64,000 bases of DNA from an uncultured Pseudomonadales bacterium (lineage in GTDB: Bacteria; Patescibacteriota; Microgenomatia; UBA1400; UBA12108): assembly GCA_964502225.1 (NCBI GenBank), contig CAZCUC010000004.1, positions 2,641 to 66,640 on the forward strand. The letters run 5' to 3'. Under the pieces are notes generated by a model that saw nothing but the letters and a program-made list of their open reading frames with translations, did no database searches and had not been told where the DNA came from. A program made the translations under genes and the position numbers. This document shows positions 4,716 through 29,766 of the stretch, in pieces; positions within the stretch are counted from its first letter, which is position 1; each line of letters starts with the position of its first letter.

Positions 4716-4716
4716 A

Positions 4717-9999: not shown

Positions 10000-10557
10000 C
10001 TACCTTAATAAGGGTTTTTCTATCAAGGCCGGAGTCGAAAAGTCTAATCGCCTAGCCTGATCTAAAAAGAGCTTAATAGTTGCTTCGAAGTCTACATATT
10101 CAGGTAGAGCGGCTTCTTGGAGAATTCCTTCCTCCAGCATGGCTACCATAGCTTCGCTACTGGAGATGCCCATTGGATTGGCTGTCATACCACTAAATCT
10201 TTTATATCCACCGGTGCTATGATCGTAATAGTACATTTTATCCTGACCTGTCGAAGATACTCCAGAAACTTCTAGACCATACCGTGGTTCATCGTTTTCT
10301 TCCCAACGCATCATTCCTCTCATTAATCCAACCCAGCTATCTCCAATTCGAACTACTAATGCTGCATTCAACTGACCAGACTTAACTCCTTCTCCCCACT
10401 CCCACTTGTAGAACACCCATTTTCTACTACCGTCTGAACTAAATACTTCTCGTTCATTTGATTCCTCTCTGCTGGCTAATCTGTCTATCGCTCGTCTTAG
10501 TCCTTTGAAAAGAGATACACCTTTTCTTTTCGGACCGTTGAACCCTTCGATACTCAT
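10000..10557 (-). CDS. hypothetical protein (185 aa), no recognizable domain
   Basis: ORF only; sits between the complete HIT gene and a duplicated HIT 5' fragment. Confidence 0.45.
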   Translation of the reverse strand: MSIEGFNGPKRKGVSLFKGLRRAIDRLASREESNEREVFSSDGSRKWVFYKWEWGEGVKSGQLNAALVVRIGDSWVGLMRGMMRWEENDEPRYGLEVSGVSSTGQDKMYYYDHSTGGYKRFSGMTANPMGISSSEAMVAMLEEGILQEAALPEYVDFEATIKLFLDQARRLDFSTPALIEKPLLR

Positions 10558-10593
10558 CTAGTTATTGTAATCTATAGGTCAAATCATTTCGTA

Positions 10594-10635
10594 TTAGATG
10601 GGACAAATGTAGTCGGAATCAACGTGGTTGTGCAT
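10594..10635 (-). pseudogene. truncated duplicate of the HIT gene 5' end (MHNHVDSDYICPI*)
   Basis: about 38 bp match 9937-9975 (MHNHASADYICPI...) with 7 mismatches, then an immediate stop. Confidence 0.55.
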
Positions 10636-11380
10636 TTTGTTGTAATTTTTTCTTATTTAAAACTAGCAAATATGCTTTTTCTAAGTTATCAATTAATGAT
10701 TGTTTCGTTGTATCTCCGATTTCTAAATAGACATGGATAGCAATAATTATAAGCAAACTTGATAAAGTATACTGGCTTAAGAGAAAAGTTTTTACTACTA
10801 AAATAACTAACGCAACAATTAATCCTTTTAATAAATTAAACCTCTTATTATATTTCGTACTTAGAGTCCCATCATTTTCTTTACACATTTGCTTACTAAG
10901 TCTAAATAATTCATAAGAATTCCCGCTGATTGAGAAATATTCATTTAGTTTTTTTACTAGTGTGTTTTTATATTCTTCGCTGATCAAATGACTTTCTTGG
11001 TCAAGAGGACTCGGTAAACTGAAATAAAGACGAATCGACTTAATCTTCTTATTTGCCCAGCTCCATTTTTTAGTTATAAAGAGTAAAAGTAGTAGAGATC
11101 TATCTGTTGTTCCTATTACCGCACTAAACACCAGATCATTGACTATTCCAATCAAAAGTAAAATTAGCATTGATATAGATAACTGTATTAATCCAACGTT
11201 ATAGTCTAATAAGATAGATAAAATCCACATCCATTCACTCAGGTTATTTCCGATGAAAAAATATGCAAGAGCAAGAAGAGAAAATGCGCCAGAAATAATA
11301 AGTGATGACCATGTAACTATTTCTGTTGTTACCAGGTTGTTTAAATTTATATCTTTTAGTATTTCTTTTGCGTTAAGCAT
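10619..11380 (-). CDS. AT-rich polytopic membrane protein, hypothetical (likely horizontally acquired)
   Basis: strong drop in GC across 10640-11400; 4-5 predicted TM segments; no homology recognised. Confidence 0.5.
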   Translation of the reverse strand: MLNAKEILKDINLNNLVTTEIVTWSSLIISGAFSLLALAYFFIGNNLSEWMWILSILLDYNVGLIQLSISMLILLLIGIVNDLVFSAVIGTTDRSLLLLLFITKKWSWANKKIKSIRLYFSLPSPLDQESHLISEEYKNTLVKKLNEYFSISGNSYELFRLSKQMCKENDGTLSTKYNKRFNLLKGLIVALVILVVKTFLLSQYTLSSLLIIIAIHVYLEIGDTTKQSLIDNLEKAYLLVLNKKKLQQNAQPR

Positions 11381-16679: not shown

Positions 16680-18332
16680 TTAGACGGTAGGTTCGGAGGT
16701 TTCGAGGGTTTCGTCGGACTCGGAGAGGGCTTTGTGCCAGCCGCCGATCTTTTCGGCTAGGCGCACAAAAATGCCGAGCTCTTTGATGTTGAAGAGGTAT
16801 GACAAGGCAATATAGACACCCATACCAATCAATCCAACAGTTACAGTCAGGAGAATGAGAGGAATCGTGCGAGTGGTGTCGAAGATCAAGTTGTCAAAGA
16901 CACGCAGTGGTACCCAAAGCGCTAGTGAAGTGATCAAAGTAATCCCGAGCATTTTGATAGTGGGGTACAAGAGATGGGTGCCGGCAAAGTTGGCCAGACT
17001 ATAGAGCAAACTGGTTAAAACGACTGTCTCGATGAGGGAAGCGACAGTAATAGCAAAAGCCATGCCGATGACGCCGGATTTTAAGACAAACAAGAAATAG
17101 TAGCTGAGTCCAATGTTGATGGTGGTCGAGAGTAAGTTGGTGATAAAGGGAGTACTTGTGTTGTGCAGGGAGTAAAAAACTCGAACCAAGATGTGAGTCA
17201 GCGACCTGGCGGCAATCGAGACAGCCAAAATCGCAACTAGTTTGCCGGTTAAAACTGTTTCTGCCCAAGGGAACGAATCGGCTCCGTAGGCCAAGCGGAC
17301 AAGGGGGATGCGCAGAATTAGCACAATTACACTAGAGGGAAGGGCTAGATAGAGCATCTCAAGAATCGTGTTGTTGACCATGGTAGCCAGAGAGTGGAGA
17401 TCGTTTTTGGAGGTTTCTTTGGTAAAGAACGGGAGTGAAGCCTGGCCAATGGGGATGCCGATCAAGCGAACGGGCAAGTTGGCGAGTTGCTGGGCGATCG
17501 AGATAATTGTTACTGTTCCCACAGAGAGCCAACTAGAAAAAGTAACAATGGCCGTTGCCTCGATCTGGACGAGCGAGAGAGTCAAAACACGAGGGAGCAT
17601 GAGCAGACTCATTTCTTTGACTGCGCCGTGACTCTTGTCCCAGACGAATCGATACTTAAAACCAAGTTTGCGAGCGAGAGGGAGCTGGGCTAAGAGGTGG
17701 AGACAAGCTCCAATCACAACACCAACTGCGGCGCCATAAATACCGAGAGTTTTGCCAAAAGCCAAGATGCCGATAATAATCCCGACGTTGTAGAGGACTG
17801 GAGAGAGAGCTGGAATCAAGAACCGTTTATGAGTTTGGATCACGCCAGTTAAAAACGATGAAAAACCAAAGAAAAGCTGGGCAAAGGCCATAATCCGCGT
17901 GAGGCCAACCATGAGTCTCAGCTGATCCTGCGAAAATCCACCAGCAATCAAACGACTCAAGGGATAGGCAAAAATAATAACCAGGATGGTCAAGCTAATC
18001 ATCACAATCATGACGGAGTTGATCATGGAGGAGGCAATGAGATTGCTTTCGTCTTTTTTGCCGAGGTAGCGACTAAAGACTGGAATAAAAGCAGAGGATA
18101 AAGCGCCAACAATAATGATTTGAAAAATCATGTCTGGAATCCGAAAAGCGGCCCAGAATACATCTACCACAGCTTTGTCGGCGTAAAAATACTGAATAAG
18201 TAACCTGGTGCGAACTAGTCCCAAAAGGGCCGAAACCAGTGTGGCTCCCATGATAATAGTGGCGGCAGAGAGGATAGAGGAACTTTCTTTTTCAAAGAGA
18301 TTTTTGCCGTTTTGGACTAAGCGTTTGAACAT
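16680..18332 (-). CDS. murJ: lipid II flippase MurJ/MviN
   Basis: about 14 TM segments, MviN family features; start moved to MFKRLVQ (ATG 18330-18332). Confidence 0.8.
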   Translation of the reverse strand: MFKRLVQNGKNLFEKESSSILSAATIIMGATLVSALLGLVRTRLLIQYFYADKAVVDVFWAAFRIPDMIFQIIIVGALSSAFIPVFSRYLGKKDESNLIASSMINSVMIVMISLTILVIIFAYPLSRLIAGGFSQDQLRLMVGLTRIMAFAQLFFGFSSFLTGVIQTHKRFLIPALSPVLYNVGIIIGILAFGKTLGIYGAAVGVVIGACLHLLAQLPLARKLGFKYRFVWDKSHGAVKEMSLLMLPRVLTLSLVQIEATAIVTFSSWLSVGTVTIISIAQQLANLPVRLIGIPIGQASLPFFTKETSKNDLHSLATMVNNTILEMLYLALPSSVIVLILRIPLVRLAYGADSFPWAETVLTGKLVAILAVSIAARSLTHILVRVFYSLHNTSTPFITNLLSTTINIGLSYYFLFVLKSGVIGMAFAITVASLIETVVLTSLLYSLANFAGTHLLYPTIKMLGITLITSLALWVPLRVFDNLIFDTTRTIPLILLTVTVGLIGMGVYIALSYLFNIKELGIFVRLAEKIGGWHKALSESDETLETSEPTV

Positions 18333-18422
18333 AGATGTTAGTTTACCCCACTTCGCCAAGGCTACGCTAGGGGCAAGAAGTCGTTGCGCAGGAACGCGAG
18401 ACCTGGTATACTCCACAGCATT

Positions 18423-18659
18423 ATGCCAATAACAAAGTCAGCAATCAAAAAAGCCCGCGTAGATAAAAAGCGCACCCTGGGAAACATGAGTGCCAAAGGT
18501 CGTTTGAAAACTACAATCAAAGAAGCAAGAGCTAACCCAGGAGTCGAGACTCTAAAGGCCCTATATTCTGCGATGGATAGAGCAGTGAAACACCATTTGG
18601 TGGCCAAGGGTCATGCCGCTCGTCTCAAGTCACGTATCTCCAAATTGGGCAAGAAATAA
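18423..18659 (+). CDS. rpsT: 30S ribosomal protein S20
   Basis: MPITKSAIKKARVDKKRT...; the track N-extension is rejected. Confidence 0.85.
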   Translation: MPITKSAIKKARVDKKRTLGNMSAKGRLKTTIKEARANPGVETLKALYSAMDRAVKHHLVAKGHAARLKSRISKLGKK

Positions 18660-18697
18660 ACCAAGCAAAATTCTCATAAATTAGCTATACTGGAGGC

Positions 18698-19285
18698 ATG
18701 AAACTGCCTGCCTTTTTTGGTCATAAACGATCGATAAACTTGTTGCCTCGGGATGCATTTGAGAGTAGTACTCTGGGAGTAATCCTGGAATGGTCGTTGG
18801 TTTTTGGCAAGTGGGCGGTGATTGTCACACAGCTTGTGGTGATGGGAGCTTTTTTGTATCGCTTTACCCTGGATCGTAACCTGACGGACTTGCGCAAATC
18901 GATCGCCAAAAACGTGGCAATTGTAAAATCGTATGAGCAAGTAGAAAGAGATTATGTCTTGGCACAAAAGCAAGTATTGCGAGCAAAAACGGCCTTGGCG
19001 GCACAGGACAAAATGAGCCAAACCCTCTCGGTCTTGGGACAAATAACTCCGAGCGAGATCTGGTACGACCGAATTAGCATTACCCCTGAAGCACTATCGC
19101 TAAATGCATTTGCCGCAACACTACCTGGATTTGGCAAGTTTTTGACTGCGGCTCAGCGGAGCCCGTCATTTGAGGGGATTAGACTAACCAAACTAGAAAG
19201 TAGCTCGGCTAAAGGCGCGCAAATACAGTTTGAGGTGTCTCTCGATCTAATTGCAGACAAAACTGCACCGGGGACTAAAAAATGA
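18698..19285 (+). CDS. pilN: type IV pilus assembly protein PilN-like
   Basis: hallmark INLLP motif, then a single TM and a periplasmic domain; GGAGG SD. Confidence 0.7.
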   Translation: MKLPAFFGHKRSINLLPRDAFESSTLGVILEWSLVFGKWAVIVTQLVVMGAFLYRFTLDRNLTDLRKSIAKNVAIVKSYEQVERDYVLAQKQVLRAKTALAAQDKMSQTLSVLGQITPSEIWYDRISITPEALSLNAFAATLPGFGKFLTAAQRSPSFEGIRLTKLESSSAKGAQIQFEVSLDLIADKTAPGTKK

Positions 19286-19953
19286 ACATCAATACTCGGA
19301 GATACTCACAGGATTTACGTCGTTATTATCGGATGCCGGCAGTGCAAGTATCGCTAACTTTGGTGTTGTCGGTGTTTTTGATGAGTGTTTTTGTCGTCTT
19401 TGCACTGCGCCCAACAATCTTGTCGATCGTCAACCTGAAAAAAACTATTAGTGAATCGAAAAAAGTACTACAACAACTAGAGACTAAAGTTAATTTTTTA
19501 CAAAAAGCCTCTAACCAATTAGAAACTTTGCGACCAGTAATCCCAAATATCAACAACAGTATTCCCAATAATGGAGCTATGTATTCGCCCATCACCCTAG
19601 CGATAGACGAGCTGGCTTATCAGGTAGGAGTAATAGTCGAGAGCGAGTCGCTAGGGCCAACACTCCTTTACTCGCGAATCCTCTCCCCTTTTACCCCAAA
19701 CAAGAATCAAAAAGTGGTTGAGCTGAGCTTTAGCCTGAGAGTAAGCGGCGGATATAGCGAAGTGACTGATTTTTTGAATATGATGATGAAAATGGAGCGG
19801 ATCGTCTTGGTTGATAATGTCACCATCGCCAAACAGGCAGGCGCGAAAAACTCCACTGCCAGCGTAACGATGAATGTAAGTGGACTGGCTTTTTACCTGG
19901 CAGATGCAACACAGCTAGACAAAGCATTGATCCAGAAAAAGGGAGGTAAATAA
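19282..19953 (+). CDS. pilO: PilO-like pilus assembly protein
   Basis: TM followed by a coiled-coil then an alpha/beta domain; ATGA overlap with pilN. Confidence 0.5.
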   Translation: MNINTRRYSQDLRRYYRMPAVQVSLTLVLSVFLMSVFVVFALRPTILSIVNLKKTISESKKVLQQLETKVNFLQKASNQLETLRPVIPNINNSIPNNGAMYSPITLAIDELAYQVGVIVESESLGPTLLYSRILSPFTPNKNQKVVELSFSLRVSGGYSEVTDFLNMMMKMERIVLVDNVTIAKQAGAKNSTASVTMNVSGLAFYLADATQLDKALIQKKGGK

Positions 19954-20228
19954 TGGCCGTTCGAGATACTATCTTAGTCAGTAAAACGCTGTATCAGATC
20001 GGAGTGGTGACCTTGATTACCGCAATCATGTGGGTTGGAATTGTGGTTTACCAGGCCGCTACTAAACCCTTAGCCGTAGAGATTGATAAATCGATTTTGG
20101 AACCTATCAATACAACAATCGATCAAGAGACAATTACAGCGATCACAAATCGATTGAAAATTGAGCCCAGATTAATAGAGCTTACGGCGAGCGAGAGTGC
20201 TACTATAGAGGAAGATAAAGGCATATGA
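19953..20228 (+). CDS. small single-TM protein (91 aa), possibly pilus-assembly associated
   Basis: ATGA-coupled on both sides. Confidence 0.4.
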   Translation: MAVRDTILVSKTLYQIGVVTLITAIMWVGIVVYQAATKPLAVEIDKSILEPINTTIDQETITAITNRLKIEPRLIELTASESATIEEDKGI

Positions 20229-21577
20229 GCTTGTTAACAAAGAGATTTCCAACTATTTTGGGGTTGTTTTTTTTGGTGGTGATTGTGGTGGGAATTTTCG
20301 TTTATTACTCTAGTACAAAAACAGCTAAAGTGGCGAGTGAGATAGTCCCGACCAAAGTAAGGATTACCAATGTGGCTGATAACAAATTTAGTGTGTCGTG
20401 GATAACATCTAGTCTTACAACAGGTGAGGTTGAGTATGGACAAGTAGGCGAAAAGCTGACTACCCGTGCCAAAGATGATAGAGACACGAGCGTGGCGGGC
20501 CAGTTTGTGACTCACCATGTCACCGTCGAGGGATTGCAACCGAGTACACAATACGCATTTCGAATCTTGACTGGAGACAAGCCAACGAGGTTTGACAACA
20601 GTGGAAGCCCGTACACAGTGGCCACTGGTCCTGTAATTGGCGCGACTCCGGGCTCGCAGAATTTTTACGGTAACGTAGTGCTCCCCTCAAAACAACCAGC
20701 CGAAGGTGCGCTTGTTTATATTTCGTTCCCAGGTGCCGCACCAGCCTCGGCGATTGTGAGAGATGGAGGTAACTACGCCTTCACTTTGTCGACTTTGCGA
20801 TCCAGCGATAACCGCTCCTATATTACCTATGATCCATCTGCAAGTATCGCGAGTATTACAGTTGAATCTGGCAAACAACAATCGATTGTGTCGGCATCTC
20901 TCGCCAACTCTGCACCCGTGCCGCCAATTACCCTAGGGCAGAATGCTGAGTTTTTGAACCAACCACAAAAAGTAGATGAGGTCGCACAGGTGGAAGTAGT
21001 CGCCGAGAAACCAGCAATTTTTAATGTTGAGCCGCTTGTTGCAGATACTGCCAATATCAATGCGATTTCGACAACGACAGTGACGATCTTGAACCCGAAA
21101 GAACCTGGTGAAGTACTCAAGACACTCCGACCCGAGTTCCGCGGGACGGGCCCTGCTGGTACTACTTTGTCGATTGCACTAAAAGGTCAAAAAGCTATTA
21201 GTGATACTACCCAGGTAGGGACTGATGGAACCTGGACTTGGGCGCCGGTGATTGATTTAAAAGTCGGGAAACAGACAATCACTGTGAGTTACTTGCCAAG
21301 TGGTGGCACCACCCAAAAAGTAGAGCGAGAATTTAGTGTGAGCACAAGTACAACCGGACTAGATCCGGCGTTTGTCTCCTCCCCTTCTGCTTCGGTAAAA
21401 ACCACAACGACTCAGGCTTCGAGCAGTCCTGTGAGCAGTAGCTCCGCAACCCCGCGGGTGACGATGCCAAATACGGATGAAGGTACCCCTGTGACAGGAG
21501 TAATAGAGAATACGCTATTGACTGGAGCACTAGGACTGGTCATTATGGTAGTAGGAGCAGTGCTTTTGGCACTGTAG
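20225..21577 (+). CDS. N-anchored surface protein with FN3-like and Ig-like domains and a C-terminal TPVTG-type sorting-like signal
   Basis: N-terminal TM; FN3-like ITNVADNKFSVSW...YAFRI; C-terminus MPNTDEGTPVTGVIENT plus a 20-aa hydrophobic tail. Confidence 0.6.
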   Translation: MSLLTKRFPTILGLFFLVVIVVGIFVYYSSTKTAKVASEIVPTKVRITNVADNKFSVSWITSSLTTGEVEYGQVGEKLTTRAKDDRDTSVAGQFVTHHVTVEGLQPSTQYAFRILTGDKPTRFDNSGSPYTVATGPVIGATPGSQNFYGNVVLPSKQPAEGALVYISFPGAAPASAIVRDGGNYAFTLSTLRSSDNRSYITYDPSASIASITVESGKQQSIVSASLANSAPVPPITLGQNAEFLNQPQKVDEVAQVEVVAEKPAIFNVEPLVADTANINAISTTTVTILNPKEPGEVLKTLRPEFRGTGPAGTTLSIALKGQKAISDTTQVGTDGTWTWAPVIDLKVGKQTITVSYLPSGGTTQKVEREFSVSTSTTGLDPAFVSSPSASVKTTTTQASSSPVSSSSATPRVTMPNTDEGTPVTGVIENTLLTGALGLVIMVVGAVLLAL

Positions 21578-21590
21578 GAAAGTTATATTT

Positions 21591-22787
21591 ATGGCAGATA
21601 CGCTTGTACAACAACCAATCCCCCAGCCTAGTGAGGTACCGCCCGTCACGAGTGCACCACCTGTCATGAACACGCCTCCCGTCATGAGTGTACCTCCATC
21701 ACCGATTAGCCAAAAGGTAGAGCCACCAAAAAGCAAGATTAGCCTGGTCGTGGCAGGAGTCGTGGCACTGGTGATGATGGTCGGAGTGGGAGTATGGGGA
21801 TACTCGCAGTACAGTGGGACAAAGACACCACAAATAGCCAAGTTAACTGAGGAGTTGGATGGAGGAATTACAGTTACACAAACTCCGTCTGAAGAGGCAC
21901 AAGGCAAAGGTGGAACTGTATTTAAGGATGGGATACTGATTGGACATTTGAATAATTTAGAAGTAAACATTCCAGCAATTATCGCTAAGTGCAAGAAAGA
22001 CAAGGCAGAAACAGGCTGTACGATATCAGATATGAAAACATACCTGACGAATGCAGATAATAATTATGACAGTGTGATTGGCGGATCTTGTTCCGGTATT
22101 GAAAACAGCGAGTCACCATCCATTTGTGCTCAAGGACAGGGTCATTGTGTAGGTGGAATATGTCAGCCGGCGAATTGTGCAAATGGATATACCCCTTCTG
22201 CTGAGGGCTGTGTACCAAACCCTAGCTTGGCTTGTAAAGGTACAGACTATGGAGCTCCTGTGTGCTGTTACGACACCTCGTGTGCAGGGGGAACAATTGT
22301 TTGTGAGGCACCAGGCAGAAAGGAATGCAAAAGCACTGGTATAAATGGAGAAAAACACTGCCTTTTGGAGGCTAATTCTGTGGACTGCGGTGGTAAGGTG
22401 GATGAGCCAAATGAAAGGCGGAGTCCTAATCCTTCTCCAAGCGTGTCACCAAGCGTGAGACCTTCCCCTTCTCCATCTCCCTCACCAACCATGGCATGTA
22501 CTGGACTGACACAAACACCCGCGACACAACCAGTAGTAGGATCTAAACTTACATTCACTTGTGCAGGTTCTGTGACACCAAGCAACGCCTCTACCCTTTC
22601 CTACAATTTCCGCTACGCCATTAACAACGGAGCCTGGGTCAATCTAACCAACAAAACCACGGCGACGGCCGAGTTGACCATCAGCGCTTGCGGAACATAT
22701 AAAGTAGAGTGTAGAGCCTGCGCCACATTTGGTGGTTTAATCAAGTGTGATCCATTCTGGCAATATGCAGGAGTCCAACCACTATGA
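21591..22787 (+). CDS. surface protein A: Pro-rich cytoplasmic N-terminus, TM, Cys-rich region, Ser/Pro linker, C-terminal Cys-containing beta domain
   Basis: domain MACTGLTQTP...CRACATFGG shared with the 23992..25152 product. Confidence 0.55.
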   Translation: MADTLVQQPIPQPSEVPPVTSAPPVMNTPPVMSVPPSPISQKVEPPKSKISLVVAGVVALVMMVGVGVWGYSQYSGTKTPQIAKLTEELDGGITVTQTPSEEAQGKGGTVFKDGILIGHLNNLEVNIPAIIAKCKKDKAETGCTISDMKTYLTNADNNYDSVIGGSCSGIENSESPSICAQGQGHCVGGICQPANCANGYTPSAEGCVPNPSLACKGTDYGAPVCCYDTSCAGGTIVCEAPGRKECKSTGINGEKHCLLEANSVDCGGKVDEPNERRSPNPSPSVSPSVRPSPSPSPSPTMACTGLTQTPATQPVVGSKLTFTCAGSVTPSNASTLSYNFRYAINNGAWVNLTNKTTATAELTISACGTYKVECRACATFGGLIKCDPFWQYAGVQPL

Positions 22788-23968
22788 AAAAAGGTTTAAT
22801 CATCGGCTTCTCACTGTTTGCATTGGTGGTACTGATTGTGGGTGTCGTGTATATGGTACGTAAACCAAATATCAATGTAGTGACGGCTGATTGTGCTCCT
22901 AGGTACTACTACAATCTAGAATCAAAGTCCTGTGCCGCTACCACCAGAAACTACAACGCGGCCGAGATCGATTGTGATGGAGGCACTGGCAAGACATGTG
23001 TGGTGAATCTACAGGAATGGATGCCAGGGAAAACTGCCGGATCTTGTTACAAAACTATTGCTCAGTGCCAAGCGGCCAATAGTGGGACAACCACCACCTG
23101 TACTCCTCGCTACTACTACAACACGAAGACTCAGACCTGCACGGCCACTAATCGTAGCTACAACTCTCAAGACGTAGATTGTGATGGAGGTACTGGCAAG
23201 ACATGCGCGGCTAATCTACAAGACTGGGAAGCAGGCAACACAACTGGAATCTGCTATCCTTCTCAGATTGCATGTGCCAACGCTAATGGAGGCGGATCTA
23301 CAACCACCAACTCGTGCTCGAAAACATTTACAGTCGCTTGTGCTAACCCATCGGTTAGTCCTTCGCCAATCCCAAGTACCTCCGCCCCAGTTTATCCTTC
23401 CCCATCGCCCTCTAGCCCATCATCGGCTAGCTTGGACTGTGTCGCCAAGAAAATGTATGAGAATGATAGCCGCAACCGAGCTGGATTCTATTACATGGAG
23501 CGTGAGATCACAGATACCAACACAGTCCAGAATGGCCAAATCATTGTGTACAACATCGTGACCAGAAACAATGGAGGCAACAGCGTACCTGACACAACAA
23601 TTACCGACAGACTATCGACCAACCTAACTTATGTCGATGGAGATAGTGGCTGTGGCTATGACTCAAATACAAGGACTGTGACCTGTACGATTGGAACACT
23701 CTCACCAAATAGTGAAGCTCAGAGATCGTTTAGAGCTAGTGTGACAGTGGCTGGGACTACCTCGGTCGCCAACACAGCTGAGGTGACCTCGACCAACGGA
23801 CAAAGAGATAGTTGCAGTGTCTCAATTGATGCGACTGGAAGAGTGAGCGTTGTATCCTCTCCGGCACCTACTGCACTACCAGTTGCTGGTGTGTTTGAGG
23901 TGACAGCACTACCCCTCACCCTCGGACTACTACTACTGATCATTGGTGGACTGGGACTACTGGTGCTA
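22774..23968. repeat. direct repeat copy 1 (1195 bp, appears 100% identical to 25151-26345)
   Basis: identical DNA from 10 nt upstream of the ATG to the last sense codon of gene B. Confidence 0.8.
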
Positions 23969-23971
23969 TAG
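22784..23971 (+). CDS. surface protein B: signal-anchor, two Cys-rich PRYYYN/DCDGGTGKTC modules, Ser/Pro linker, DUF11-like domain, LPVAG-type C-terminal signal
   Basis: DUF11-like YNIVTRNNGGNSVPDTTITDRLSTNLTYV...TVTCTIGTLSPNSEAQRSFRASVTV; C-terminus LPVAGVFEVT plus hydrophobic tail. Confidence 0.65.
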   Translation: MKKGLIIGFSLFALVVLIVGVVYMVRKPNINVVTADCAPRYYYNLESKSCAATTRNYNAAEIDCDGGTGKTCVVNLQEWMPGKTAGSCYKTIAQCQAANSGTTTTCTPRYYYNTKTQTCTATNRSYNSQDVDCDGGTGKTCAANLQDWEAGNTTGICYPSQIACANANGGGSTTTNSCSKTFTVACANPSVSPSPIPSTSAPVYPSPSPSSPSSASLDCVAKKMYENDSRNRAGFYYMEREITDTNTVQNGQIIVYNIVTRNNGGNSVPDTTITDRLSTNLTYVDGDSGCGYDSNTRTVTCTIGTLSPNSEAQRSFRASVTVAGTTSVANTAEVTSTNGQRDSCSVSIDATGRVSVVSSPAPTALPVAGVFEVTALPLTLGLLLLIIGGLGLLVL

Positions 23972-23991
23972 ATTGACGTTTCTGAATATAT

Positions 23992-25152
23992 TTGAGACTA
24001 TGGAAGCAGGCACTGCGTATGGTGCTAATTGAGAGTAAGAATATGCCCGACTCAACCATAGATCCAAATTTATCCAACCCCCAAGCTTTAGTTGATGCCG
24101 CCTTGAGCGACACTACCGCACCAAAGCCGAGTTTACCTACGCTCGAGCCTCTGCAACCTAGCGAACCAGCACCCGTAGAAAAGTCTCCTGAAGTAGTAGT
24201 GGCTGATGTAAAAGTTCCTGAAGTAAAGGCTCCTGAAGTAAAAGTTGAAACTAACAACATAGAGATGAGTGACGAGACGCCCCTACAGTTCGTACAGCCG
24301 AGTGAGCCAGTCACACAGCCAATCCCCTTAACAGAGCCAGTTACACCACCCCTACCCAACCCACCCATGCCTCCGTCACCGACAGTAGTGGATAGCCAAG
24401 CGATGAAACCAAAAAGTAAACTGGGAGTAGTAGTTGGGGGAGTACTAATACTAGTATTGGCGCTGGGCGCTGGAGTGTGGGGCTATCTAGGGAGTCCGAC
24501 CGAAAAAAAACCTGCTCAGATAGCAGAGGCACAGGTTGCAGATGGGTGTACTGAAAACTGTGAAAGTAGTGGGAAAGTTTGTATATATAGTACAACCAAG
24601 AAAACTTACAGTTGTCAGAAAACTGGAGGACAAGAGGCATGTATACATACTATTTGCCCTGTTAACTATGTATGTGTAGAAGGAGGAGCTCAGGGAACTT
24701 ATTGTGAACCAAAAGAAGGAGGTAAGCCGCCGGGAGAAACGCTAACTTGCCCGCCAGGGACAAGAAGCAATGGACAGTGTGAGGATGGAGTTTTGAGACC
24801 ACCGTGCTGTGAACCAGATACCTCCCCATCCCCCTCACCGTCGACAACTACCACCGCCACAATGGCGTGCACAGGTCTGACCCAAACTCCAAGTACAACC
24901 CCAGTAGTTGGATCTAAACTAACATTCACTTGTAGTGGTTCAATTACCCCAAGCAATGCAGGTACCTTGTCGTATGAGTTTGTTTACAAACTCAATGCCG
25001 GCGGGTGGAAAAGCTTGAGTAACAAAACTACAAACACGGCCGAGCTGACTATCGCAACTTGCGGAGAATATATTGTGCATTGCCGTGCGTGTGCCACGAT
25101 CAATGGTAGCAAGCAATGTGACCCTGTTTGGAAGGACGTAGTAATACAATGA
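23992..25152 (+). CDS. surface protein A' (diverged paralog of A)
   Basis: same architecture; C-terminal domain MACTGLTQTPSTTPVVGSKLTFTC...CRACATINGSKQC. Confidence 0.55.
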   Translation: MRLWKQALRMVLIESKNMPDSTIDPNLSNPQALVDAALSDTTAPKPSLPTLEPLQPSEPAPVEKSPEVVVADVKVPEVKAPEVKVETNNIEMSDETPLQFVQPSEPVTQPIPLTEPVTPPLPNPPMPPSPTVVDSQAMKPKSKLGVVVGGVLILVLALGAGVWGYLGSPTEKKPAQIAEAQVADGCTENCESSGKVCIYSTTKKTYSCQKTGGQEACIHTICPVNYVCVEGGAQGTYCEPKEGGKPPGETLTCPPGTRSNGQCEDGVLRPPCCEPDTSPSPSPSTTTTATMACTGLTQTPSTTPVVGSKLTFTCSGSITPSNAGTLSYEFVYKLNAGGWKSLSNKTTNTAELTIATCGEYIVHCRACATINGSKQCDPVWKDVVIQ

Positions 25153-26345
25153 CAACCACTATGAAAAAAGGTTTAATCATCGGCTTCTCACTGTTTGCAT
25201 TGGTGGTACTGATTGTGGGTGTCGTGTATATGGTACGTAAACCAAATATCAATGTAGTGACGGCTGATTGTGCTCCTAGGTACTACTACAATCTAGAATC
25301 AAAGTCCTGTGCCGCTACCACCAGAAACTACAACGCGGCCGAGATCGATTGTGATGGAGGCACTGGCAAGACATGTGTGGTGAATCTACAGGAATGGATG
25401 CCAGGGAAAACTGCCGGATCTTGTTACAAAACTATTGCTCAGTGCCAAGCGGCCAATAGTGGGACAACCACCACCTGTACTCCTCGCTACTACTACAACA
25501 CGAAGACTCAGACCTGCACGGCCACTAATCGTAGCTACAACTCTCAAGACGTAGATTGTGATGGAGGTACTGGCAAGACATGCGCGGCTAATCTACAAGA
25601 CTGGGAAGCAGGCAACACAACTGGAATCTGCTATCCTTCTCAGATTGCATGTGCCAACGCTAATGGAGGCGGATCTACAACCACCAACTCGTGCTCGAAA
25701 ACATTTACAGTCGCTTGTGCTAACCCATCGGTTAGTCCTTCGCCAATCCCAAGTACCTCCGCCCCAGTTTATCCTTCCCCATCGCCCTCTAGCCCATCAT
25801 CGGCTAGCTTGGACTGTGTCGCCAAGAAAATGTATGAGAATGATAGCCGCAACCGAGCTGGATTCTATTACATGGAGCGTGAGATCACAGATACCAACAC
25901 AGTCCAGAATGGCCAAATCATTGTGTACAACATCGTGACCAGAAACAATGGAGGCAACAGCGTACCTGACACAACAATTACCGACAGACTATCGACCAAC
26001 CTAACTTATGTCGATGGAGATAGTGGCTGTGGCTATGACTCAAATACAAGGACTGTGACCTGTACGATTGGAACACTCTCACCAAATAGTGAAGCTCAGA
26101 GATCGTTTAGAGCTAGTGTGACAGTGGCTGGGACTACCTCGGTCGCCAACACAGCTGAGGTGACCTCGACCAACGGACAAAGAGATAGTTGCAGTGTCTC
26201 AATTGATGCGACTGGAAGAGTGAGCGTTGTATCCTCTCCGGCACCTACTGCACTACCAGTTGCTGGTGTGTTTGAGGTGACAGCACTACCCCTCACCCTC
26301 GGACTACTACTACTGATCATTGGTGGACTGGGACTACTGGTGCTA
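25151..26345. repeat. direct repeat copy 2 (1195 bp)
   Basis: identical to 22774-23968. Confidence 0.8.
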
Positions 26346-26348
26346 TGA
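25161..26348 (+). CDS. surface protein B' (exact duplicate of B)
   Basis: 395-aa product identical to B; start at MKKGLIIGF is preferred over the 25128 extension. Confidence 0.65.
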   Translation: MKKGLIIGFSLFALVVLIVGVVYMVRKPNINVVTADCAPRYYYNLESKSCAATTRNYNAAEIDCDGGTGKTCVVNLQEWMPGKTAGSCYKTIAQCQAANSGTTTTCTPRYYYNTKTQTCTATNRSYNSQDVDCDGGTGKTCAANLQDWEAGNTTGICYPSQIACANANGGGSTTTNSCSKTFTVACANPSVSPSPIPSTSAPVYPSPSPSSPSSASLDCVAKKMYENDSRNRAGFYYMEREITDTNTVQNGQIIVYNIVTRNNGGNSVPDTTITDRLSTNLTYVDGDSGCGYDSNTRTVTCTIGTLSPNSEAQRSFRASVTVAGTTSVANTAEVTSTNGQRDSCSVSIDATGRVSVVSSPAPTALPVAGVFEVTALPLTLGLLLLIIGGLGLLVL

Positions 26349-27352
26349 AAAAAGCGTTGCTGATTGCTCTACCTATTTTGATTGTAATTGGAGTGGTGGT
26401 TGGATACTTTTTCTATAGCAGAGAGAAAGTAGGGATTAATGAAGTAGTTCCAACTACTTGCGCACCCGGAACTCACCAAGTTTTTAATTATAATGCGGCA
26501 GGTAATCAGATTCCGCCTTACTGTGCCGCCGATACAACAGGGGCGACCAATACCCAGGCATCAGCGGCACCATCTACTTCGAGTAGTTGTGAGACAAAAC
26601 CAAATTGTTTGATAGTAAACCCGCCGACCTGCAAGGGACTACAGCCACCCGATGGTAAGACTTGGTGCGCAACCACGACAACTACTACTACCACAACGAC
26701 TACCACGGGTGATGCAACCTGCGCTAAGCGATACTACTATAGTTTAGATTCAAAGGGATGTGTTGCGACAACAAGAAATTATAACTCGGCAGAAATGGAT
26801 TGTGATGGCGGAACGGGTAAAACATGTGTGGTGAATCTGCAGGAAGCACTGCCCGGTAAAACTGGGGGCTCTTGTTTTAAAACTGAAGAGCTATGTCTGG
26901 CTTCTAAAGCAATTTGTTCTCCCAGATATTATTACAACACCGTGACTAAACTTTGTGTAGCGACAAACCGGAGCTATGACTCGAAGGATGTCGATTGTGA
27001 TGGCCAGACAAATAAAACCTGTACGGCCAATCTGCAAGACTGGGAGCCAGGGAGAACTACGGGAGTCTGTTATGCGTCTCAGACTACCTGCTTAGATGCC
27101 AACAAAACAACAACACAAACTACTAGTACCACGACAACTACTGCCGCAAGCCCGAGCCCGAGTCCCAGTGTGTCCTCTGGACTAGGAGGTGGGACAACAG
27201 TGACCCCTACCCCCTCGCCCTCTCCTAGAGCTGCTATGCCAGACACTAGTGAAGGAACACCAGTAACTGGCGTGTTTGAAGTGACGGCGGGAACTATTGG
27301 AATTGGTTTGTTGCTGTTGATCGCTGGTATATTTGGAATATTGATGTTTTGA
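26345..27352 (+). CDS. surface protein C: two PRYYYN/DCDGGTGKTC Cys-rich modules, poly-Thr linkers, TPVTG-type C-terminal signal
   Basis: modules CAKRYYYSLDSKGC...DCDGGTGKTC and CSPRYYYNTVTKLC...DCDGQTNKTC; C-terminus MPDTSEGTPVTGVFEVT plus hydrophobic tail. Confidence 0.6.
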   Translation: MKKALLIALPILIVIGVVVGYFFYSREKVGINEVVPTTCAPGTHQVFNYNAAGNQIPPYCAADTTGATNTQASAAPSTSSSCETKPNCLIVNPPTCKGLQPPDGKTWCATTTTTTTTTTTTGDATCAKRYYYSLDSKGCVATTRNYNSAEMDCDGGTGKTCVVNLQEALPGKTGGSCFKTEELCLASKAICSPRYYYNTVTKLCVATNRSYDSKDVDCDGQTNKTCTANLQDWEPGRTTGVCYASQTTCLDANKTTTQTTSTTTTTAASPSPSPSVSSGLGGGTTVTPTPSPSPRAAMPDTSEGTPVTGVFEVTAGTIGIGLLLLIAGIFGILMF

Positions 27353-27366
27353 GAAGCCGTAATTAT

Positions 27367-29766
27367 CTATCGCCAAGTCGGGAAGAGCTTGAATAAATTG
27401 TCCCAGTAAATGTTTGAGGTAGGCAAGCCATATATCATAGGACTAATCAGGAGTAACCCTAAAACAGAGAGGACAAGAACTAGACGGCGATAAAGAGGAT
27501 TTAAACGTACCAACCAGCTCGCCAAGATAGTAGTCAAAAAGTAGGCGGAGGGAAGGTAGTGGTAAAAAAACATGATGCGAGGCGAAATAACCCAGGGAAT
27601 AAAGAGGACGAAATAAAGTGAATAAAGAATGGAGTATGGATAGAGAAATAGATACTTGAGATTGATAACGGCGGCGAACAACCCTAACCAGAGAATGATC
27701 GGATTGCCAATTGCGTAGATATTGGAGAGAAAGTTGTCCTGATAATTGACGTAGTACCATACTGGCCGCAAATCGAAGATCCATTTGATGGGGGTGGACT
27801 GGTAAGCATGGGTGGCGACCAGGTGCGTGTGGTAATACCACATTTGGCGGTGGAGCTCCCACCACTGCGCCCAGGTATGACCGGCCAAAATAAAAGGAGT
27901 AAAAGTTAGCGTATAAACGGTTAAAACTATTAATGATAAACGGACAGCGAATAAAAAATGTAAGACCCCAGACTTTAGATGCCAGTGTCTAAGCGGATTT
28001 TGATGGAGATAGAGTAGGGCGAGGGGAACGATGCCATAGAGCGCGCTCCACTTGGAGGCAAGCGCAAGACCATAAAGAATGGCGGCTCCTTTCCAGCGAG
28101 ATTTGACCGCCAAGTACATGGACCAAATATAAAAACACAACATATAAGTATCATTCATGGCGATGCGAGATTGAACGAGATGGAGACCTTCGATGCTAAC
28201 TAAAAATGTTGCAAGCAAAGCCAAGTGTTTGTTGCTGGTGAGCGCAGTGAGAAAGAGATATAGTCCTAGCAAACTAACTACGCCAAAGGTGGCCGAGCCA
28301 AACCGCCAACCGAGGCTGTTTTCACCAAACAGCAACATACCAGCGACCATGCCGTACTTGGCGAGAGGAGGGTGAGTCCATTCGTAAGCCACCCCTTCTG
28401 GGGGCGTAGTCCACCACTCCCAGGCCTCGACGTGGTTATTTAAATACTCACGGGAGGTAAAAGCATGGTAGACTTCGTCGAAAATGTAGGCTGGAGGATG
28501 AGAGAGATTGACGAAGCGAAGGAGTGATGCAAAGATCAAGATTCCAACCAGCAACTGATTGGATTTTACTTTAACAAAAATAGATTTTAATAAACTAGGC
28601 CATGACCAAACGAAGACTAACAACAAAGCCGCAAGGACTGTAACCCAAGAAATAAGAGAGATGGTCGAGAGTGAAAATGGCCATATCTGAGCGTGATTGA
28701 CCCAATAGTAAGCACCATACAAATTGAGCGTGAAGGTGGTAGTTAAGAGAGTAAGGGGAATGAGGAGGTAGTAGTCGGTCATGGCGGCCAGCGTGAGAAA
28801 GGGCAATCCAAAAAGAAGGTGCCGCTCATGCATGCGGGTAGTAAAGGTAAAAAAGATAACCATAATAGTCGCGGCAACTCGCCAGGCATACTGGGGAGAA
28901 AAATCTTGTTTGCGCCAAGCATTAAAAGTGAAGAGAGTGAGTGAGACAAAGAGGATGGTGCCCAACGCCTGGCCAGACAAATTGAATACGCTAGTAGAAT
29001 CTGGAATCCAACTCAAGTTGGGATGGAGCGACCAAAAATTGAAAGCGTTGACAGTCAAAAATGGATAGGTACCGGTTTGTGAAGTGATGCGGTCAAAAAT
29101 ATGAGAAACAAAGCCCAGCCCACCTGTAGGAACCCCAGTGAGAAAAAAGGTGATCATGGAAAAAGTAGGTAGTTGCCACCATGGTCGTTTTTGAACGATG
29201 GTGACCAGCCACAGGACAGGTGCCACCAACACCATGATTGGCTTGTAGGCAACTGCCAGTCCAAATAAGATGCTAGAAGAGAGGAGTGAGGTCTGGGGAT
29301 TGATAATTTTTGTAAGCGAGAGTAAGGCAAGAAGTGCAGGGATCGTATCAACTTGGCCCCAAAAAGCGTTGTCGCCGATTAGCGCTGGGGAGAGTAAAAG
29401 GAGGTAAATACTAAGAGAGAAGAGAGAGGATTTGGGAGTAGATTTAGCGATGAAGAAGATCAAGATGAGTTCGAGGACAATATGAAGTAATTTGAATACT
29501 ATCCCAAAAGGCAAGTGGAAAAAATCGGCTACAAGTGAGATAGGGGCGAATGTCAGGATGGGGAGTGGGAGATAATCTGACCAGACGGTACTAAAAAATA
29601 AGCTGGGTGATTGGAGCCAAAATGAACGAGACCAAGACTCGTAGGTACCGATATCGTAATATTGCGCGGGAATTGTGAGTCCGTAGAGACGGACGAGGAT
29701 GGCAGTCACCCAAACTAGTGTTAAGAAGTATATTTTATTTTGCCAAATTTGCTTTAACATAAGCAT
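27367..29766 (-). CDS. large GT-C family glycosyltransferase (PMT/GT39-like phospho-lipid-carrier dependent O-mannosyltransferase-like), two fused GT-C halves
   Basis: 799 aa with more than 20 TM segments; second half carries the PMT-type DE motif region IFDEVYHAFTSREYL...THPPLAKY. Confidence 0.65.
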   Translation of the reverse strand: MLMLKQIWQNKIYFLTLVWVTAILVRLYGLTIPAQYYDIGTYESWSRSFWLQSPSLFFSTVWSDYLPLPILTFAPISLVADFFHLPFGIVFKLLHIVLELILIFFIAKSTPKSSLFSLSIYLLLLSPALIGDNAFWGQVDTIPALLALLSLTKIINPQTSLLSSSILFGLAVAYKPIMVLVAPVLWLVTIVQKRPWWQLPTFSMITFFLTGVPTGGLGFVSHIFDRITSQTGTYPFLTVNAFNFWSLHPNLSWIPDSTSVFNLSGQALGTILFVSLTLFTFNAWRKQDFSPQYAWRVAATIMVIFFTFTTRMHERHLLFGLPFLTLAAMTDYYLLIPLTLLTTTFTLNLYGAYYWVNHAQIWPFSLSTISLISWVTVLAALLLVFVWSWPSLLKSIFVKVKSNQLLVGILIFASLLRFVNLSHPPAYIFDEVYHAFTSREYLNNHVEAWEWWTTPPEGVAYEWTHPPLAKYGMVAGMLLFGENSLGWRFGSATFGVVSLLGLYLFLTALTSNKHLALLATFLVSIEGLHLVQSRIAMNDTYMLCFYIWSMYLAVKSRWKGAAILYGLALASKWSALYGIVPLALLYLHQNPLRHWHLKSGVLHFLFAVRLSLIVLTVYTLTFTPFILAGHTWAQWWELHRQMWYYHTHLVATHAYQSTPIKWIFDLRPVWYYVNYQDNFLSNIYAIGNPIILWLGLFAAVINLKYLFLYPYSILYSLYFVLFIPWVISPRIMFFYHYLPSAYFLTTILASWLVRLNPLYRRLVLVLSVLGLLLISPMIYGLPTSNIYWDNLFKLFPTWR

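What the first reader, a model, noticed from the sequence alone, without database searches (positions are those of the whole stretch)
22774..26345. Exact 1195-bp tandem duplication of gene B, while the paired A/A' genes have diverged
The A-B unit (21591-23971) is repeated as A'-B' (23992-26348). B and B', including 10 nt of upstream sequence, appear 100% identical at the DNA level. A and A' share only their C-terminal domain. This implies either a very recent duplication of B or ongoing gene conversion (concerted evolution) acting on B but not A. It is also a site prone to assembly collapse or expansion and to copy-number variation.
Basis: seen in the sequence. Interest (0 to 1): 0.6.

Follow-up and report, generated by a model that had tools for sequence, protein, structure and literature searches.

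The report
Twin surface-protein genes kept identical
In an uncultured Woesebacteria (CPR) genome, a conserved surface-protein gene occurs twice as byte-identical 1194-bp copies on either side of a fast-evolving partner gene, and related metagenomes show the pair is old and kept identical by recombination between the copies: a clean but textbook case of concerted evolution.

Summary
Window 22776-23969 and 25153-26346 are 100% identical over 1194 bp, from 8 nt before the ATG of gene B to the first base of its stop codon.

It is not an assembly artefact. Logan unitigs from run SRR12762304 end exactly k-1 = 30 nt inside the repeat and carry the A->R, R->Y and Y->R junctions.

It is not a recent duplication. 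The same two junctions occur in at least five other metagenome lineages, whose B DNA differs from the window's by 1.7-13%. Within each lineage the two B copies differ at 0-1 sites and share that lineage's own substitutions.

Directly upstream of the repeat, the conserved C-terminal domains of A and A' are saturated at synonymous sites (dS 1.6-2.2), while B and B' have dS = 0. So this is an old [A-B][A'-B'] tandem pair in which B evolves in concert, by gene conversion or unequal crossing-over.

- **B** is a membrane-anchored protein with a CLIPPER/DUF11 domain, under strong purifying selection (dN/dS 0.02).
- **A and A'** are N-terminally anchored proteins with a hypervariable cysteine-rich ectodomain segment that recombination swaps between strains.
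- **Copy number** probably varies, but this is unproven.

It is a new example of a known process, of moderate interest.

The parts
20225..21577 (+). Upstream gene of the same co-directional cluster: a 450-aa secreted FN3/Big_13 protein with the same kind of C-terminal hydrophobic anchor (…TPVTGVIENT + helix).
   Evidence: ORF. Pfam fn3/Pur_ac_phosph_N/Big_13. Conserved synteny in other Woesebacteria.
21591..22787 (+). Gene A (398 aa): Pro-rich N-terminus, one TM helix, hypervariable Cys-rich ectodomain, P/S linker, conserved C-terminal beta-sandwich domain. Its stop overlaps the B start (ATGA).
   Evidence: A differs from the L001 A at 68% aa identity (dN 0.28, dS 0.59), while the flanking FN3 gene has dS 0.10.
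21854..22471 (+). Hypervariable middle of A. It gives no blastn match to the L001 strain, whose flanking DNA is about 98% identical.
   Evidence: (the alignment breaks between 21853 and 22472).
22491..22754 (+). Conserved C-terminal FN3/Ig-like domain of A (MACTGL…CDP). It is the ancient paralog of 24862-25125.
   Evidence: 65% nt identity to the A' domain, dN 0.29, dS 1.6-2.2.
22776..23969 (+). Repeat R, copy 1 (1194 bp).
22784..23971 (+). Gene B (395 aa): N-terminal TM/signal helix, two Cys-rich modules, P/S linker, CLIPPER/DUF11 domain (aa 217-355), LPVAG…E.T motif and a C-terminal helix.
   Evidence: Pfam DUF11 46.1 bits against a 24.6 cutoff. AF2 model. Best PDB fold match is 9ifr, a CLIPPER domain. 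dN/dS 0.02.
23970..25152 (+). Unique spacer Y (1183 bp) between the two R copies: a 49-73 nt intergenic head plus gene A'.
   Evidence: Recovered as its own Logan unitig, flanked by 30 nt of R on each side.
24043..25152 (+). Gene A' (369 aa from ATG 24043; gene callers use ATG 24019, giving 377 aa). Same architecture as A, with a longer Pro-rich N-terminus. Its stop lies 8 nt before the B' ATG.
   Evidence: AF2: TM helix 127-149 and a C-terminal beta-sandwich 273-368 with pLDDT above 90, with weak FN3/Ig-like fold matches.
24179..24246 (+). 15-nt tandem repeat (PEVKx units) in the A' N-terminal region. Copy number differs between lineages.
24530..24720 (+). Hypervariable segment of A' (approximate limits). 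Allele types are only about 40% identical and are exchanged between lineages.
   Evidence: L005 and L017 are 100% identical elsewhere but 42-63% identical here. L017 is 96-99% identical to the window here.
24862..25125 (+). Conserved C-terminal FN3/Ig-like domain of A'.
25153..26346 (+). Repeat R, copy 2 (1194 bp).
25161..26348 (+). Gene B', whose protein is identical to B. Some gene callers start it at ATG 25149, giving 399 aa. Its stop overlaps the ATG of C.
26345..27352 (+). Gene C (335 aa): a diverged paralog of the N-terminal half of B (two Cys-rich modules at 61-77% nt identity), a poly-Thr linker, the same C-terminal anchor, and no CLIPPER domain.
   Evidence: dN/dS 0.04-0.09.
27367..29766 (-). 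Protein O-mannosyltransferase-like membrane protein (PMT/PMT_2/PMT_4TMC). It is the conserved neighbour of the A-B(-C) cluster in all related species.

Best explanation
An old tandem duplication produced two [A-type gene + B gene] modules in a Woesebacteria cell-envelope gene cluster (FN3 protein, A, B, A', B', C). Since then the two B copies have been repeatedly homogenised by homologous recombination between them, through intrachromosomal gene conversion and/or unequal crossing-over, so they evolve in concert and are now identical over the whole stretch in which they are alignable. Homogenisation stops on the left at a 6-nt indel followed by A/A' sequence that is only 65-70% identical, too diverged to recombine. 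It stops on the right where homology ends at the stop codon. A and A' have escaped homogenisation. They are N-terminally membrane-anchored proteins with an exposed cysteine-rich segment that is hypervariable and is swapped between strains by recombination. B is a strongly conserved, membrane-anchored protein with a CLIPPER/DUF11 beta-sandwich. Shown here: the repeat, its reality at the junction level, its presence with the same junctions in diverged lineages, the within-lineage identity of the copies, the contrast in selection, and the mosaicism. Inferred: the recombination mechanism itself; that A and B act together (each A-type gene is immediately followed by, and probably translationally coupled to, a B gene); that these are adhesion or host-contact proteins; and that the 1.2-kb repeats cause gain or loss of the A'-B unit.
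For: (1) The repeat is exact over 1194 bp and is the only long repeat in the window.
(2) Logan unitigs from run SRR12762304 are 100% identical to the window. They end exactly 30 nt (k-1) inside R: L003 covers 17866-22805 and L004 covers 23940-25182. The A->R, R->Y and Y->R junctions are therefore present in raw reads.
(3) The same junction sequences flank R in other metagenomes. L023 shows A-tail->R->Y. L017, L018 and L020 show A'-tail->R->C. L005 and L006 are closed R+Y cycles whose terminal overlap equals the assembler k (141 and 127) and which start at R base 1.
(4) R differs from the window's R by 17-20 sites (L001, L023), by 33-35 sites (the L005/L017/L018 group) and by 158 sites (L006). 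Between copies of one lineage it differs at 0 sites (window; L005 versus L017) or 1 site (L019 versus L020).
(5) Within single contigs, the L017 upstream B tail (127 nt) is identical to its own downstream B' tail and carries 5 substitutions relative to the window. The L018 upstream tail (116 nt) shares 2 lineage-specific substitutions with its own B' and differs from it only at R position 1158.
(6) The A versus A' C-terminal domain, which ends 21 nt (A) and 27 nt (A') upstream of R, has dN 0.29 and dS 1.6-2.2. B versus B' has dS = 0, and B of the window versus L006 has dS 0.79.
(7) Purifying selection cannot explain DNA identity: all 17 coding differences between the window's B and the L001 B are synonymous.
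(8) A-B adjacency is conserved across nine Woesebacteria species representatives.
(9) The HVR mosaic of L017 and L005 shows recombination acting at this locus.
Against: No reads were available, so the number of Y-R units (n>=1) and the exact identity of the two copies in the sequenced population rest on assemblies. Short-read assemblers cannot phase a 1.2-kb exact repeat and may pop small bubbles.

The SRR12762304 unitigs probably come from the same reads as the window's contig. They confirm the junctions but are not a biological replicate.

In the most diverged lineage (L006), the evidence for two B copies is only a cycle contig.

Four contigs run A'-tail->R->Y. That path should not exist if n=1, so the true structure may be more complex.

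Gene conversion cannot be told apart from unequal crossing-over.

The functional coupling of A and B is inferred only from gene order, a fusion protein in another species (L014) and the selection pattern.
Confidence: 0.75

Rival explanations
1. A very recent segmental duplication of B (or of the A'-B unit) in the window's own lineage, with too little time since for any substitution.
For: The copies show zero differences and sharp edges. Close relatives appear to have a single A-B-C: L001 and L002.
Against: Identical R->Y and Y->R junctions occur in lineages whose R differs from the window's by 20 to 158 sites. L017 and L018 carry both copies with shared lineage-specific substitutions. A and A' next to R are saturated at synonymous sites. 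L023 has the L001-type A allele yet carries R->Y.
Confidence: 0.04
2. An assembly artefact: there is only one B, and two co-existing strains (…A-B-C and …A'-B-C) were stitched into a false tandem.
For: Exact repeats in metagenome assemblies are a classic source of misjoins. A is strain-variable.
Against: A bubble of two alleles gives no R->Y junction. That junction (…CTGGTGCTAT|AGATTGACG…) is present in a raw-read unitig (L004) and in L005, L006, L007, L017, L018, L019, L021 and L023, which come from different projects and assemblers. L023 spans A-tail, the whole of B and the A' head in one contig.
Confidence: 0.03
3. The locus is a larger or dynamic array: A-R-(Y-R)n-C with n>=2 in some genomes, and/or excised R+Y circles. 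The assembled n=1 would then be a collapse. Homogeneity would be maintained mainly by expansion and contraction (unequal crossing-over) rather than by gene conversion.
For: Contigs run A'-tail->R->Y (L019, L021). Closed cycles of R+Y+k occur (L005, L006). The apparent n=0 forms L001 and L002 would be the contraction products.
Against: These paths can also arise from lost entry or exit edges in low-coverage de Bruijn graphs (L023, for example, has coverage about 4). Both cycles start exactly at R base 1, which indicates an entry branch and not a free circle. R+Y contains no replication gene.
Confidence: 0.15
4. A' and its B copy were imported from another strain by homologous or Campbell-type recombination anchored in B, so the twin B copies are a by-product of integration.
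For: Strains clearly exchange DNA at this locus: the HVR mosaic, the mosaic C head in L002 and the A allele shared by L001 and L023.
Against: This would have to be a single old event, because all lineages share the junctions. That again requires later homogenisation of B. GC content and skew show no foreign segment.
Confidence: 0.03

Closest known systems
Concerted evolution of duplicated bacterial genes by gene conversion (for example tufA/tufB and rRNA operons, from my own knowledge; survey in Wang & Chen 2018, PMC6053082; conversion rates between E. coli rRNA operons in PMC8022953)
   Same: The paralogs within a genome are more alike than orthologs between lineages. The duplication is older than the lineage split. 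Identity drops abruptly at the edge of the homologous tract.
   Different: The homogenised gene here is a lineage-restricted surface protein in a CPR bacterium, not a core translation or metabolic gene. The copies are only 1.2 kb apart in direct orientation. They flank a gene that is evolving in the opposite mode, by diversification.
Fibrillar adhesins and pilins with CLIPPER (DUF11, PF01345) stalk domains (bioRxiv 10.1101/2025.04.25.650565; PDB 9ifr)
   Same: B has one CLIPPER domain above the Pfam threshold. Its AF2 model's best PDB match is 9ifr, followed by Gram-positive pilins and AgI/II C-domains. It also has an N-terminal signal/TM helix and a C-terminal anchor.
   Different: B has a single CLIPPER domain in a 395-aa protein, not a long tandem stalk. 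Isopeptide-forming residues were not verified. There is no canonical LPXTG plus basic tail, and no sortase gene in the window.
Adhesin loci that vary by segmental recombination, for example Mycoplasma genitalium mgpB/mgpC with MgPar repeats (PMC2169797)
   Same: It is a surface protein with conserved flanks and a variable internal segment replaced by homologous recombination, in a small-genome, host-dependent bacterium.
   Different: No archive of silent cassettes was found in the window. Variation appears to be exchanged between strains, not within a genome. The exact repeat here is the conserved partner gene, not the variable segment.
Hypervariable surface-protein gene of a Gracilibacteria (CPR) genome that fragmented its assembly (Sieber et al. 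2019, PMC6851277)
   Same: It is a CPR genome with a predicted extracellular, N-terminally anchored protein. It shows extreme local variation within a population and breaks assemblies.
   Different: That case is variation inside a short 9-mer (PTD) repeat array. Here the variable part is a non-repetitive Cys-rich segment, and the repeat is a whole conserved gene.

Membership tests
Concerted evolution of paralogs | [quoted passage not shown] | tested here: met
   Between copies within a lineage there are 0 differences (window), 0 (L005 versus L017) and 1 (L019 versus L020; the L018 tail versus its own B'). Between lineages there are 17-158 differences.
Concerted evolution of paralogs | The duplication predates the split of the lineages compared. 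| tested here: met
   The R->Y and Y->R junction sequences are identical in all lineages, including L006, whose R is 13% diverged. The adjacent A/A' domain has dS 1.6-2.2, against B window-L006 dS 0.79.
Concerted evolution of paralogs | Lineage-specific substitutions are shared by both copies. | tested here: met
   L017 has 5 of 5 tail substitutions in both copies. L018 has 2 shared plus 1 copy-specific, at R position 1158. Only the last 116-127 nt of the upstream copy are on the same contig as the downstream copy.
Concerted evolution of paralogs | The mechanism is identified (gene conversion versus unequal crossing-over). | not testable with these tools
   This needs phased long reads or population time series. 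Contigs running A'->R->Y hint at array expansion.
CLIPPER / DUF11 domain (PF01345) | A sequence match above the curated Pfam threshold. | tested here: met
   46.1 bits against a gathering score of 24.6, residues 243-342. TIGR01451 scores 24.7 against 24.
CLIPPER / DUF11 domain (PF01345) | A CnaA-like Ig beta-sandwich fold. | tested here: met
   AF2 residues 217-355 are mostly at pLDDT above 90. The top Foldseek PDB hit is 9ifr, a CLIPPER domain, E 6e-6, TM(target) 0.59.
CLIPPER / DUF11 domain (PF01345) | An intramolecular Lys-Asn isopeptide bond with a catalytic Asp/Glu (present in only some members). | tested here: inconclusive
   K222, N330/N338 and D275/D285 are invariant in the 40-sequence family alignment. 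Their geometry was not examined, and no PDB relative was found by sequence.
Sortase-anchored (LPXTG) cell-wall protein | An LPXTG-type pentapeptide, then a hydrophobic stretch, then a basic tail. | tested here: not met
   B has an invariant LPVAG followed by VFEVT and a hydrophobic helix, but the protein ends …GLLVL with no basic tail. No NCBIfam sorting-signal model hit.
Sortase-anchored (LPXTG) cell-wall protein | A sortase is encoded in the genome or nearby. | tested here: inconclusive
   No sortase family was found among the window ORFs scanned. The rest of the genome was not available.
Diversity-generating retroelement target (considered for A/A') | A nearby reverse transcriptase and a template/variable repeat pair differing at adenines. 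| tested here: not met
   There is no second copy of the variable segment in the window and no RT among the scanned ORFs. Alleles differ by indels and about 40% identity, not by A-specific substitutions.

The most novel reading that the evidence does not exclude
A and B form a two-subunit surface device. A would be a variable, strain-specific recognition subunit, and B a conserved CLIPPER stalk or anchor made in 1:1 coupling from the gene directly downstream. Concerted evolution would keep every B copy interchangeable, so the array can gain, lose or swap A-type cassettes (n = 0, 1, 2…) without breaking the A-B interface. That would make it a recombination-driven repertoire system for host or surface recognition in an episymbiotic CPR bacterium.
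Probability: 0.2. Interest if true: 0.6.

Novelty: new member of a known kind. Interest (0 to 1): 0.4.

Why it matters
This is a clean natural example in which two adjacent genes of one duplicated module evolve in opposite modes. One is homogenised to identity and the other diversifies, and the switch happens within a few nucleotides.

It documents concerted evolution and probable copy-number change in a cell-surface locus of Woesebacteria, uncultured CPR bacteria. Almost nothing is known about how these organisms contact hosts or surfaces, and the A/B/C proteins have no described function.

There is also a practical point. The 1.2-kb exact repeat and the hypervariable neighbour break or mis-route short-read assemblies of these genomes: there are cycle contigs, and contigs that end at the A/B junction. 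Gene content at this locus in public MAGs should therefore not be taken at face value.

Tried and rejected
- **Recent duplication.** Rejected because the junctions are shared across diverged lineages.
- **Two-strain misassembly.** Rejected because the R->Y junction is in raw-read unitigs and in many independent assemblies.
- **Foreign or mobile DNA.** There is no GC or skew anomaly. R+Y holds no transposase, integrase or replication gene. No inverted repeats were found.
- **DGR mutagenesis of A/A'.** No TR/VR pair and the wrong pattern of variation.
- **A promoter or terminator in the conserved 73-nt head of Y.** No site passed the consensus scan, and overall counts were no higher than in shuffles.
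- **Rfam and tRNA scans.** Only a tRNA-Cys, far from the locus.
- **Search of JGI metagenome contigs with A'.** It returned only the contig already held, L006.
- **Sequence search of the PDB with the B family profile.** Nothing meaningful.
- **Literature searches.** Woesebacteria+DUF11 and Patescibacteria+sortase/adhesin found no description of this locus.
- **Which assemblies hold the small Y contigs P0026 and P0027.** This could not be determined because the look-ups were exhausted. Whether the single-copy L001 is a real deletion or an assembler collapse therefore stays open.


Full report
**Observation.**
A base-by-base comparison at offset 2377 shows that window 22776-23969 and 25153-26346 are identical over 1194 bp. 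A self-BLAST finds no other long repeat in the 64-kb window. The left edge lies 8 nt upstream of the ATG of gene B (22784). The right edge is the first base of the stop codon. B ends in TAG and is followed by a 49-73 nt spacer and then gene A'. B' ends in TGA, which overlaps the ATG of gene C. Outside the repeat, identity at the same offset is random at about 25%. With a 6-nt indel placed exactly at the left edge, the 3' ends of A and A' align at about 65-70% identity. The finding's description is therefore correct apart from small details: 1194 bp, not 1195, and 8 nt upstream, not 10.

**Source and context.**
The exact B protein is NCBI MBP9670421.1, a 'DUF11 domain-containing protein [Candidatus Woesebacteria bacterium]'. 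The window belongs to a 76,590-bp NCBI contig. The cluster runs on one strand: PilN-like, PilO-like, a 91-aa protein, a 450-aa FN3/Big_13 protein, then A, B, A', B' and C. It converges on a protein O-mannosyltransferase-like gene and an LCP gene. The rest of the window is ordinary chromosome:
- IF-2, NusA, DnaJ/K, GrpE, HrcA, LepA, MurJ and S20;
- TIM, UvrD, FemAB, an AddA-like helicase-nuclease, RmuC, MetRS and TatD;
- GAPDH, GroEL, YidC and others.
GC content and skew show no foreign segment.

**Is the tandem real?**
Two unitig-style contigs from the Logan assembly of run SRR12762304 are 100% identical to the window.
- L003 covers 17866-22805 and ends exactly 30 nt into R.
- L004 covers 23940-25182: 30 nt of the 3' end of R, all of the spacer Y (23970-25152), and 30 nt of the 5' end of R.

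With k=31, this is the signature of a repeat node with two entries (A tail, A' tail) and two exits (Y, C). The raw reads therefore contain the junctions A->R, R->Y and Y->R. A mix of two strains carrying alternative A alleles would not create an R->Y junction. These reads are probably the ones the window's contig was built from. They validate the junctions, but not the number of Y-R units, which stays n>=1.

**Other populations.**
Homologs of A' and exact or near-exact B proteins led to contigs from several projects and assemblers. R is ungapped in all of them, and the flanking junction sequences are the same.

| Path | Contigs | Source |
|---|---|---|
| A-tail->R->Y | L023 | SPAdes, ERZ2271759 |
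| A'-tail->R->C | L017, L018, L020 | MEGAHIT, ERZ272962xx/960xx |
| A'-tail->R->Y | L019, L021 | |
| closed R+Y cycle | L005, L006 | exact terminal overlaps of 141 and 127 nt (the assembler k); both start at R base 1 |
| A-tail->R->C, no Y | L001, L002 | GCA_018060585.1 (flanks about 98% identical to the window); Logan SRR12762303 |

**Age of the duplication and concerted evolution.**
Relative to the window, R differs at 17 sites (L001), 20 (L023), 33-35 (the L005/L017/L018-L022 group) and 158 (L006). The two copies within a lineage differ at 0 sites in the window. L005, which exits to Y, and L017, which exits to C, also differ at 0 sites. L019 versus L020 differ at 1 site.

Evidence from single contigs points the same way.
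- The 127-nt B tail that precedes Y in L017 is identical to the tail of L017's own downstream B', and it carries five substitutions relative to the window.
- In L018, the 116-nt upstream tail shares two lineage-specific substitutions with its own B'. It differs from it only at R position 1158, which is 37 nt from the right edge.

The conserved C-terminal domain of A and A' (88 codons) ends 21 nt (A) and 27 nt (A') upstream of R. It has dN 0.29 and dS 1.6-2.2, so it is saturated. B versus B' has dS = 0, and the window's B versus the L006 B has dS 0.79.

Selection on the protein cannot explain identity at the DNA level. All 17 coding differences between the window's B and the L001 B are synonymous, and dN/dS for B is about 0.02 throughout. 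If B and B' had been diverging only since the split from L001, about 17 differences would be expected. The Poisson probability of none is about 4e-8.

This meets the definition of concerted evolution: paralogs more similar within a lineage than orthologs between lineages (PMC6053082). The duplication predates a 13% DNA divergence.

The edges fit this reading. On the left, homogenisation stops at an indel followed by sequence too diverged for homologous pairing. On the right, homology simply ends. The one copy-specific SNP seen lies near an edge, where conversion tracts reach least often.

**What the genes are.**

*B (395 aa).* B has:
- an N-terminal TM/signal helix;
- two cysteine-rich modules of about 50 aa;
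- a P/S-rich linker;
- a CLIPPER/DUF11 domain, at 46.1 bits against a 24.6 cutoff;
- an invariant LPxAG…E.T motif;
- a C-terminal hydrophobic helix without a basic tail.

The AF2 model is confident for residues 217-355. Its best PDB match is the CLIPPER domain 9ifr, followed by Gram-positive pilins and antigen I/II C-domains. CLIPPER domains are described as stalk domains of fibrillar adhesins, and some carry an isopeptide bond (bioRxiv 10.1101/2025.04.25.650565). Whether B forms such a bond was not established.

The core B family, about 280 aa and without the Cys-rich modules, is widespread and highly conserved in Woesebacteria-like contigs.

*A (398 aa) and A' (369-377 aa).* Both have:
- a Pro-rich N-terminus with short tandem repeats;
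- basic residues followed by one TM helix, so the rest of the protein is predicted to lie outside the cell;
- a Cys-rich segment;
- a P/S linker;
- a conserved beta-sandwich of about 95 aa with pLDDT above 90 and weak FN3/Ig-like fold matches.

*Gene spacing.* A's stop overlaps B's start. A' ends 8 nt before B'. B' overlaps C. Translational coupling is therefore likely, though this is an inference.

*Conservation.* The A-B adjacency is conserved in nine species representatives. In one of them (L014), a single ORF fuses a CLIPPER-like domain to the A-type C-terminal domain. This is a weak Rosetta-stone hint that the two work together.

**Opposite evolutionary modes.**
A differs between the window and L001 at 68% aa identity (dN 0.28, dS 0.59). 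The flanking genes have dS of only 0.06-0.10, so A's middle has been replaced, not mutated in place.

In A', a segment around 24530-24720 is only about 40% identical between allele types. L017 and L005 are 100% identical everywhere else, including R, but 42-63% identical in this segment. L017 is 96-99% identical to the window there. L023 carries the L001-type A allele together with R->Y.

The variable segments are therefore shuffled between strains by homologous recombination. This is the pattern expected for an exposed protein under diversifying selection. It is not DGR-like: there is no template repeat, no RT was seen, and the differences are indel-rich.

**Copy number.**
Recombination between 1.2-kb direct repeats should delete or amplify the Y-R unit. 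L001 and L002 look like n=0. The A'->R->Y contigs and the cycles look like n>=2 or excised circles.

Each of these can also be an assembly outcome. Entry or exit edges may be lost at low coverage, or the loop may be skipped during repeat resolution. An NCBI contig of 1295 bp carrying an A' variant (P0027) could even belong to L001's own assembly. I could not resolve this. Copy-number variation is therefore plausible, not shown.

**Verdict.**
- The repeat is real and its junctions are real.
- The 'recent duplication' reading is rejected.
- The 'gene conversion acting on B but not A' reading is supported, with unequal crossing-over as an equally possible mechanism.
- The phenomenon itself is well known in bacteria. 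The locus, the organism group and the sharp juxtaposition with a hypervariable partner are new details.
- The functional proposal, a conserved B subunit paired with variable A-type subunits on the cell surface, is an inference that needs structural or biochemical tests.

Noticed in passing
window 26539-26560 (gene C): Six SNPs are clustered in 22 nt between the window and both L001 and L002, while the rest of the C 5' region is nearly identical. L002 is window-like at four other sites, so the C head is a small recombination mosaic.
   Followed up: partly
window 22904-23056, 23111-23263 (B); 25281-25433, 25488-25640 (B'); 26732-26884, 26927-27079 (C): A cysteine-rich module of about 150 nt (CxPRYYYN…C) occurs twice in B, twice in B' and twice in C, at 61-77% identity. 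Most Woesebacteria B homologs are about 280 aa and lack it, so it is a lineage-specific insertion shared by B and C.
   Followed up: partly
window 27367-29766 (-) and the S/T/P-rich linkers of A, B, A' and C: A protein O-mannosyltransferase-like gene is the conserved neighbour of the A-B(-C) cluster in all related species. The cluster's proteins have PSPSPS and poly-Thr linkers, which are plausible O-glycosylation substrates.
   Followed up: no
L014 502-1461: In another Woesebacteria species, one ORF fuses a CLIPPER-like domain to the A-type C-terminal FN3-like domain, directly upstream of a B homolog that lacks the Cys-rich modules.
   Followed up: partly
C-termini of the proteins at window 20225-21577, 22784-23971, 25161-26348 and 26345-27352: They share a C-terminal motif, P-V-[TA]-G-V-[FI]-E-x-T, followed by a hydrophobic helix and no basic tail. 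LPxAG…E.T is invariant in the B family. It resembles a sorting signal but fits no known one, and no sortase was found in the window.
   Followed up: partly
window 24179-24246 (A') and 21638-21697 (A): Short in-frame tandem repeats (15 nt, PEVKx units; 18 nt) lie in the Pro-rich N-terminal regions. The A' repeat differs in unit number between lineages (proteins of 372, 373, 377 and 378 aa).
   Followed up: partly
L008, L010, L013, L014, L015 (species-representative MAG contigs): Several MAG contigs end inside A, at the A/B junction or inside B. This suggests the locus breaks assemblies in other species too, through hypervariable A and/or repeated B.
   Followed up: no
Record titles of L008, L009, L013-L015 and source names of P0008/P0040: Contigs with this Woesebacteria-type synteny are labelled 'uncultured Pseudomonadales bacterium' or 'Thiothrix sp.' in their records. 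These are probably mislabelled or mis-binned MAGs.
   Followed up: no
window 52344-55244 (-), 3822-4859 (-), 4717-5730 (-), 10000-11380 (-), 44256-45749 (+): These are large ORFs without any Pfam family, including a 966-aa protein. They were not examined further.
   Followed up: no
window 23970-24042 (head of Y): The non-coding stretch between B and A' is more conserved than synonymous sites of B. It has 1 mismatch in the first 45 nt against L006, whose B differs by 13%. The consensus scan found no promoter or terminator there.
   Followed up: partly
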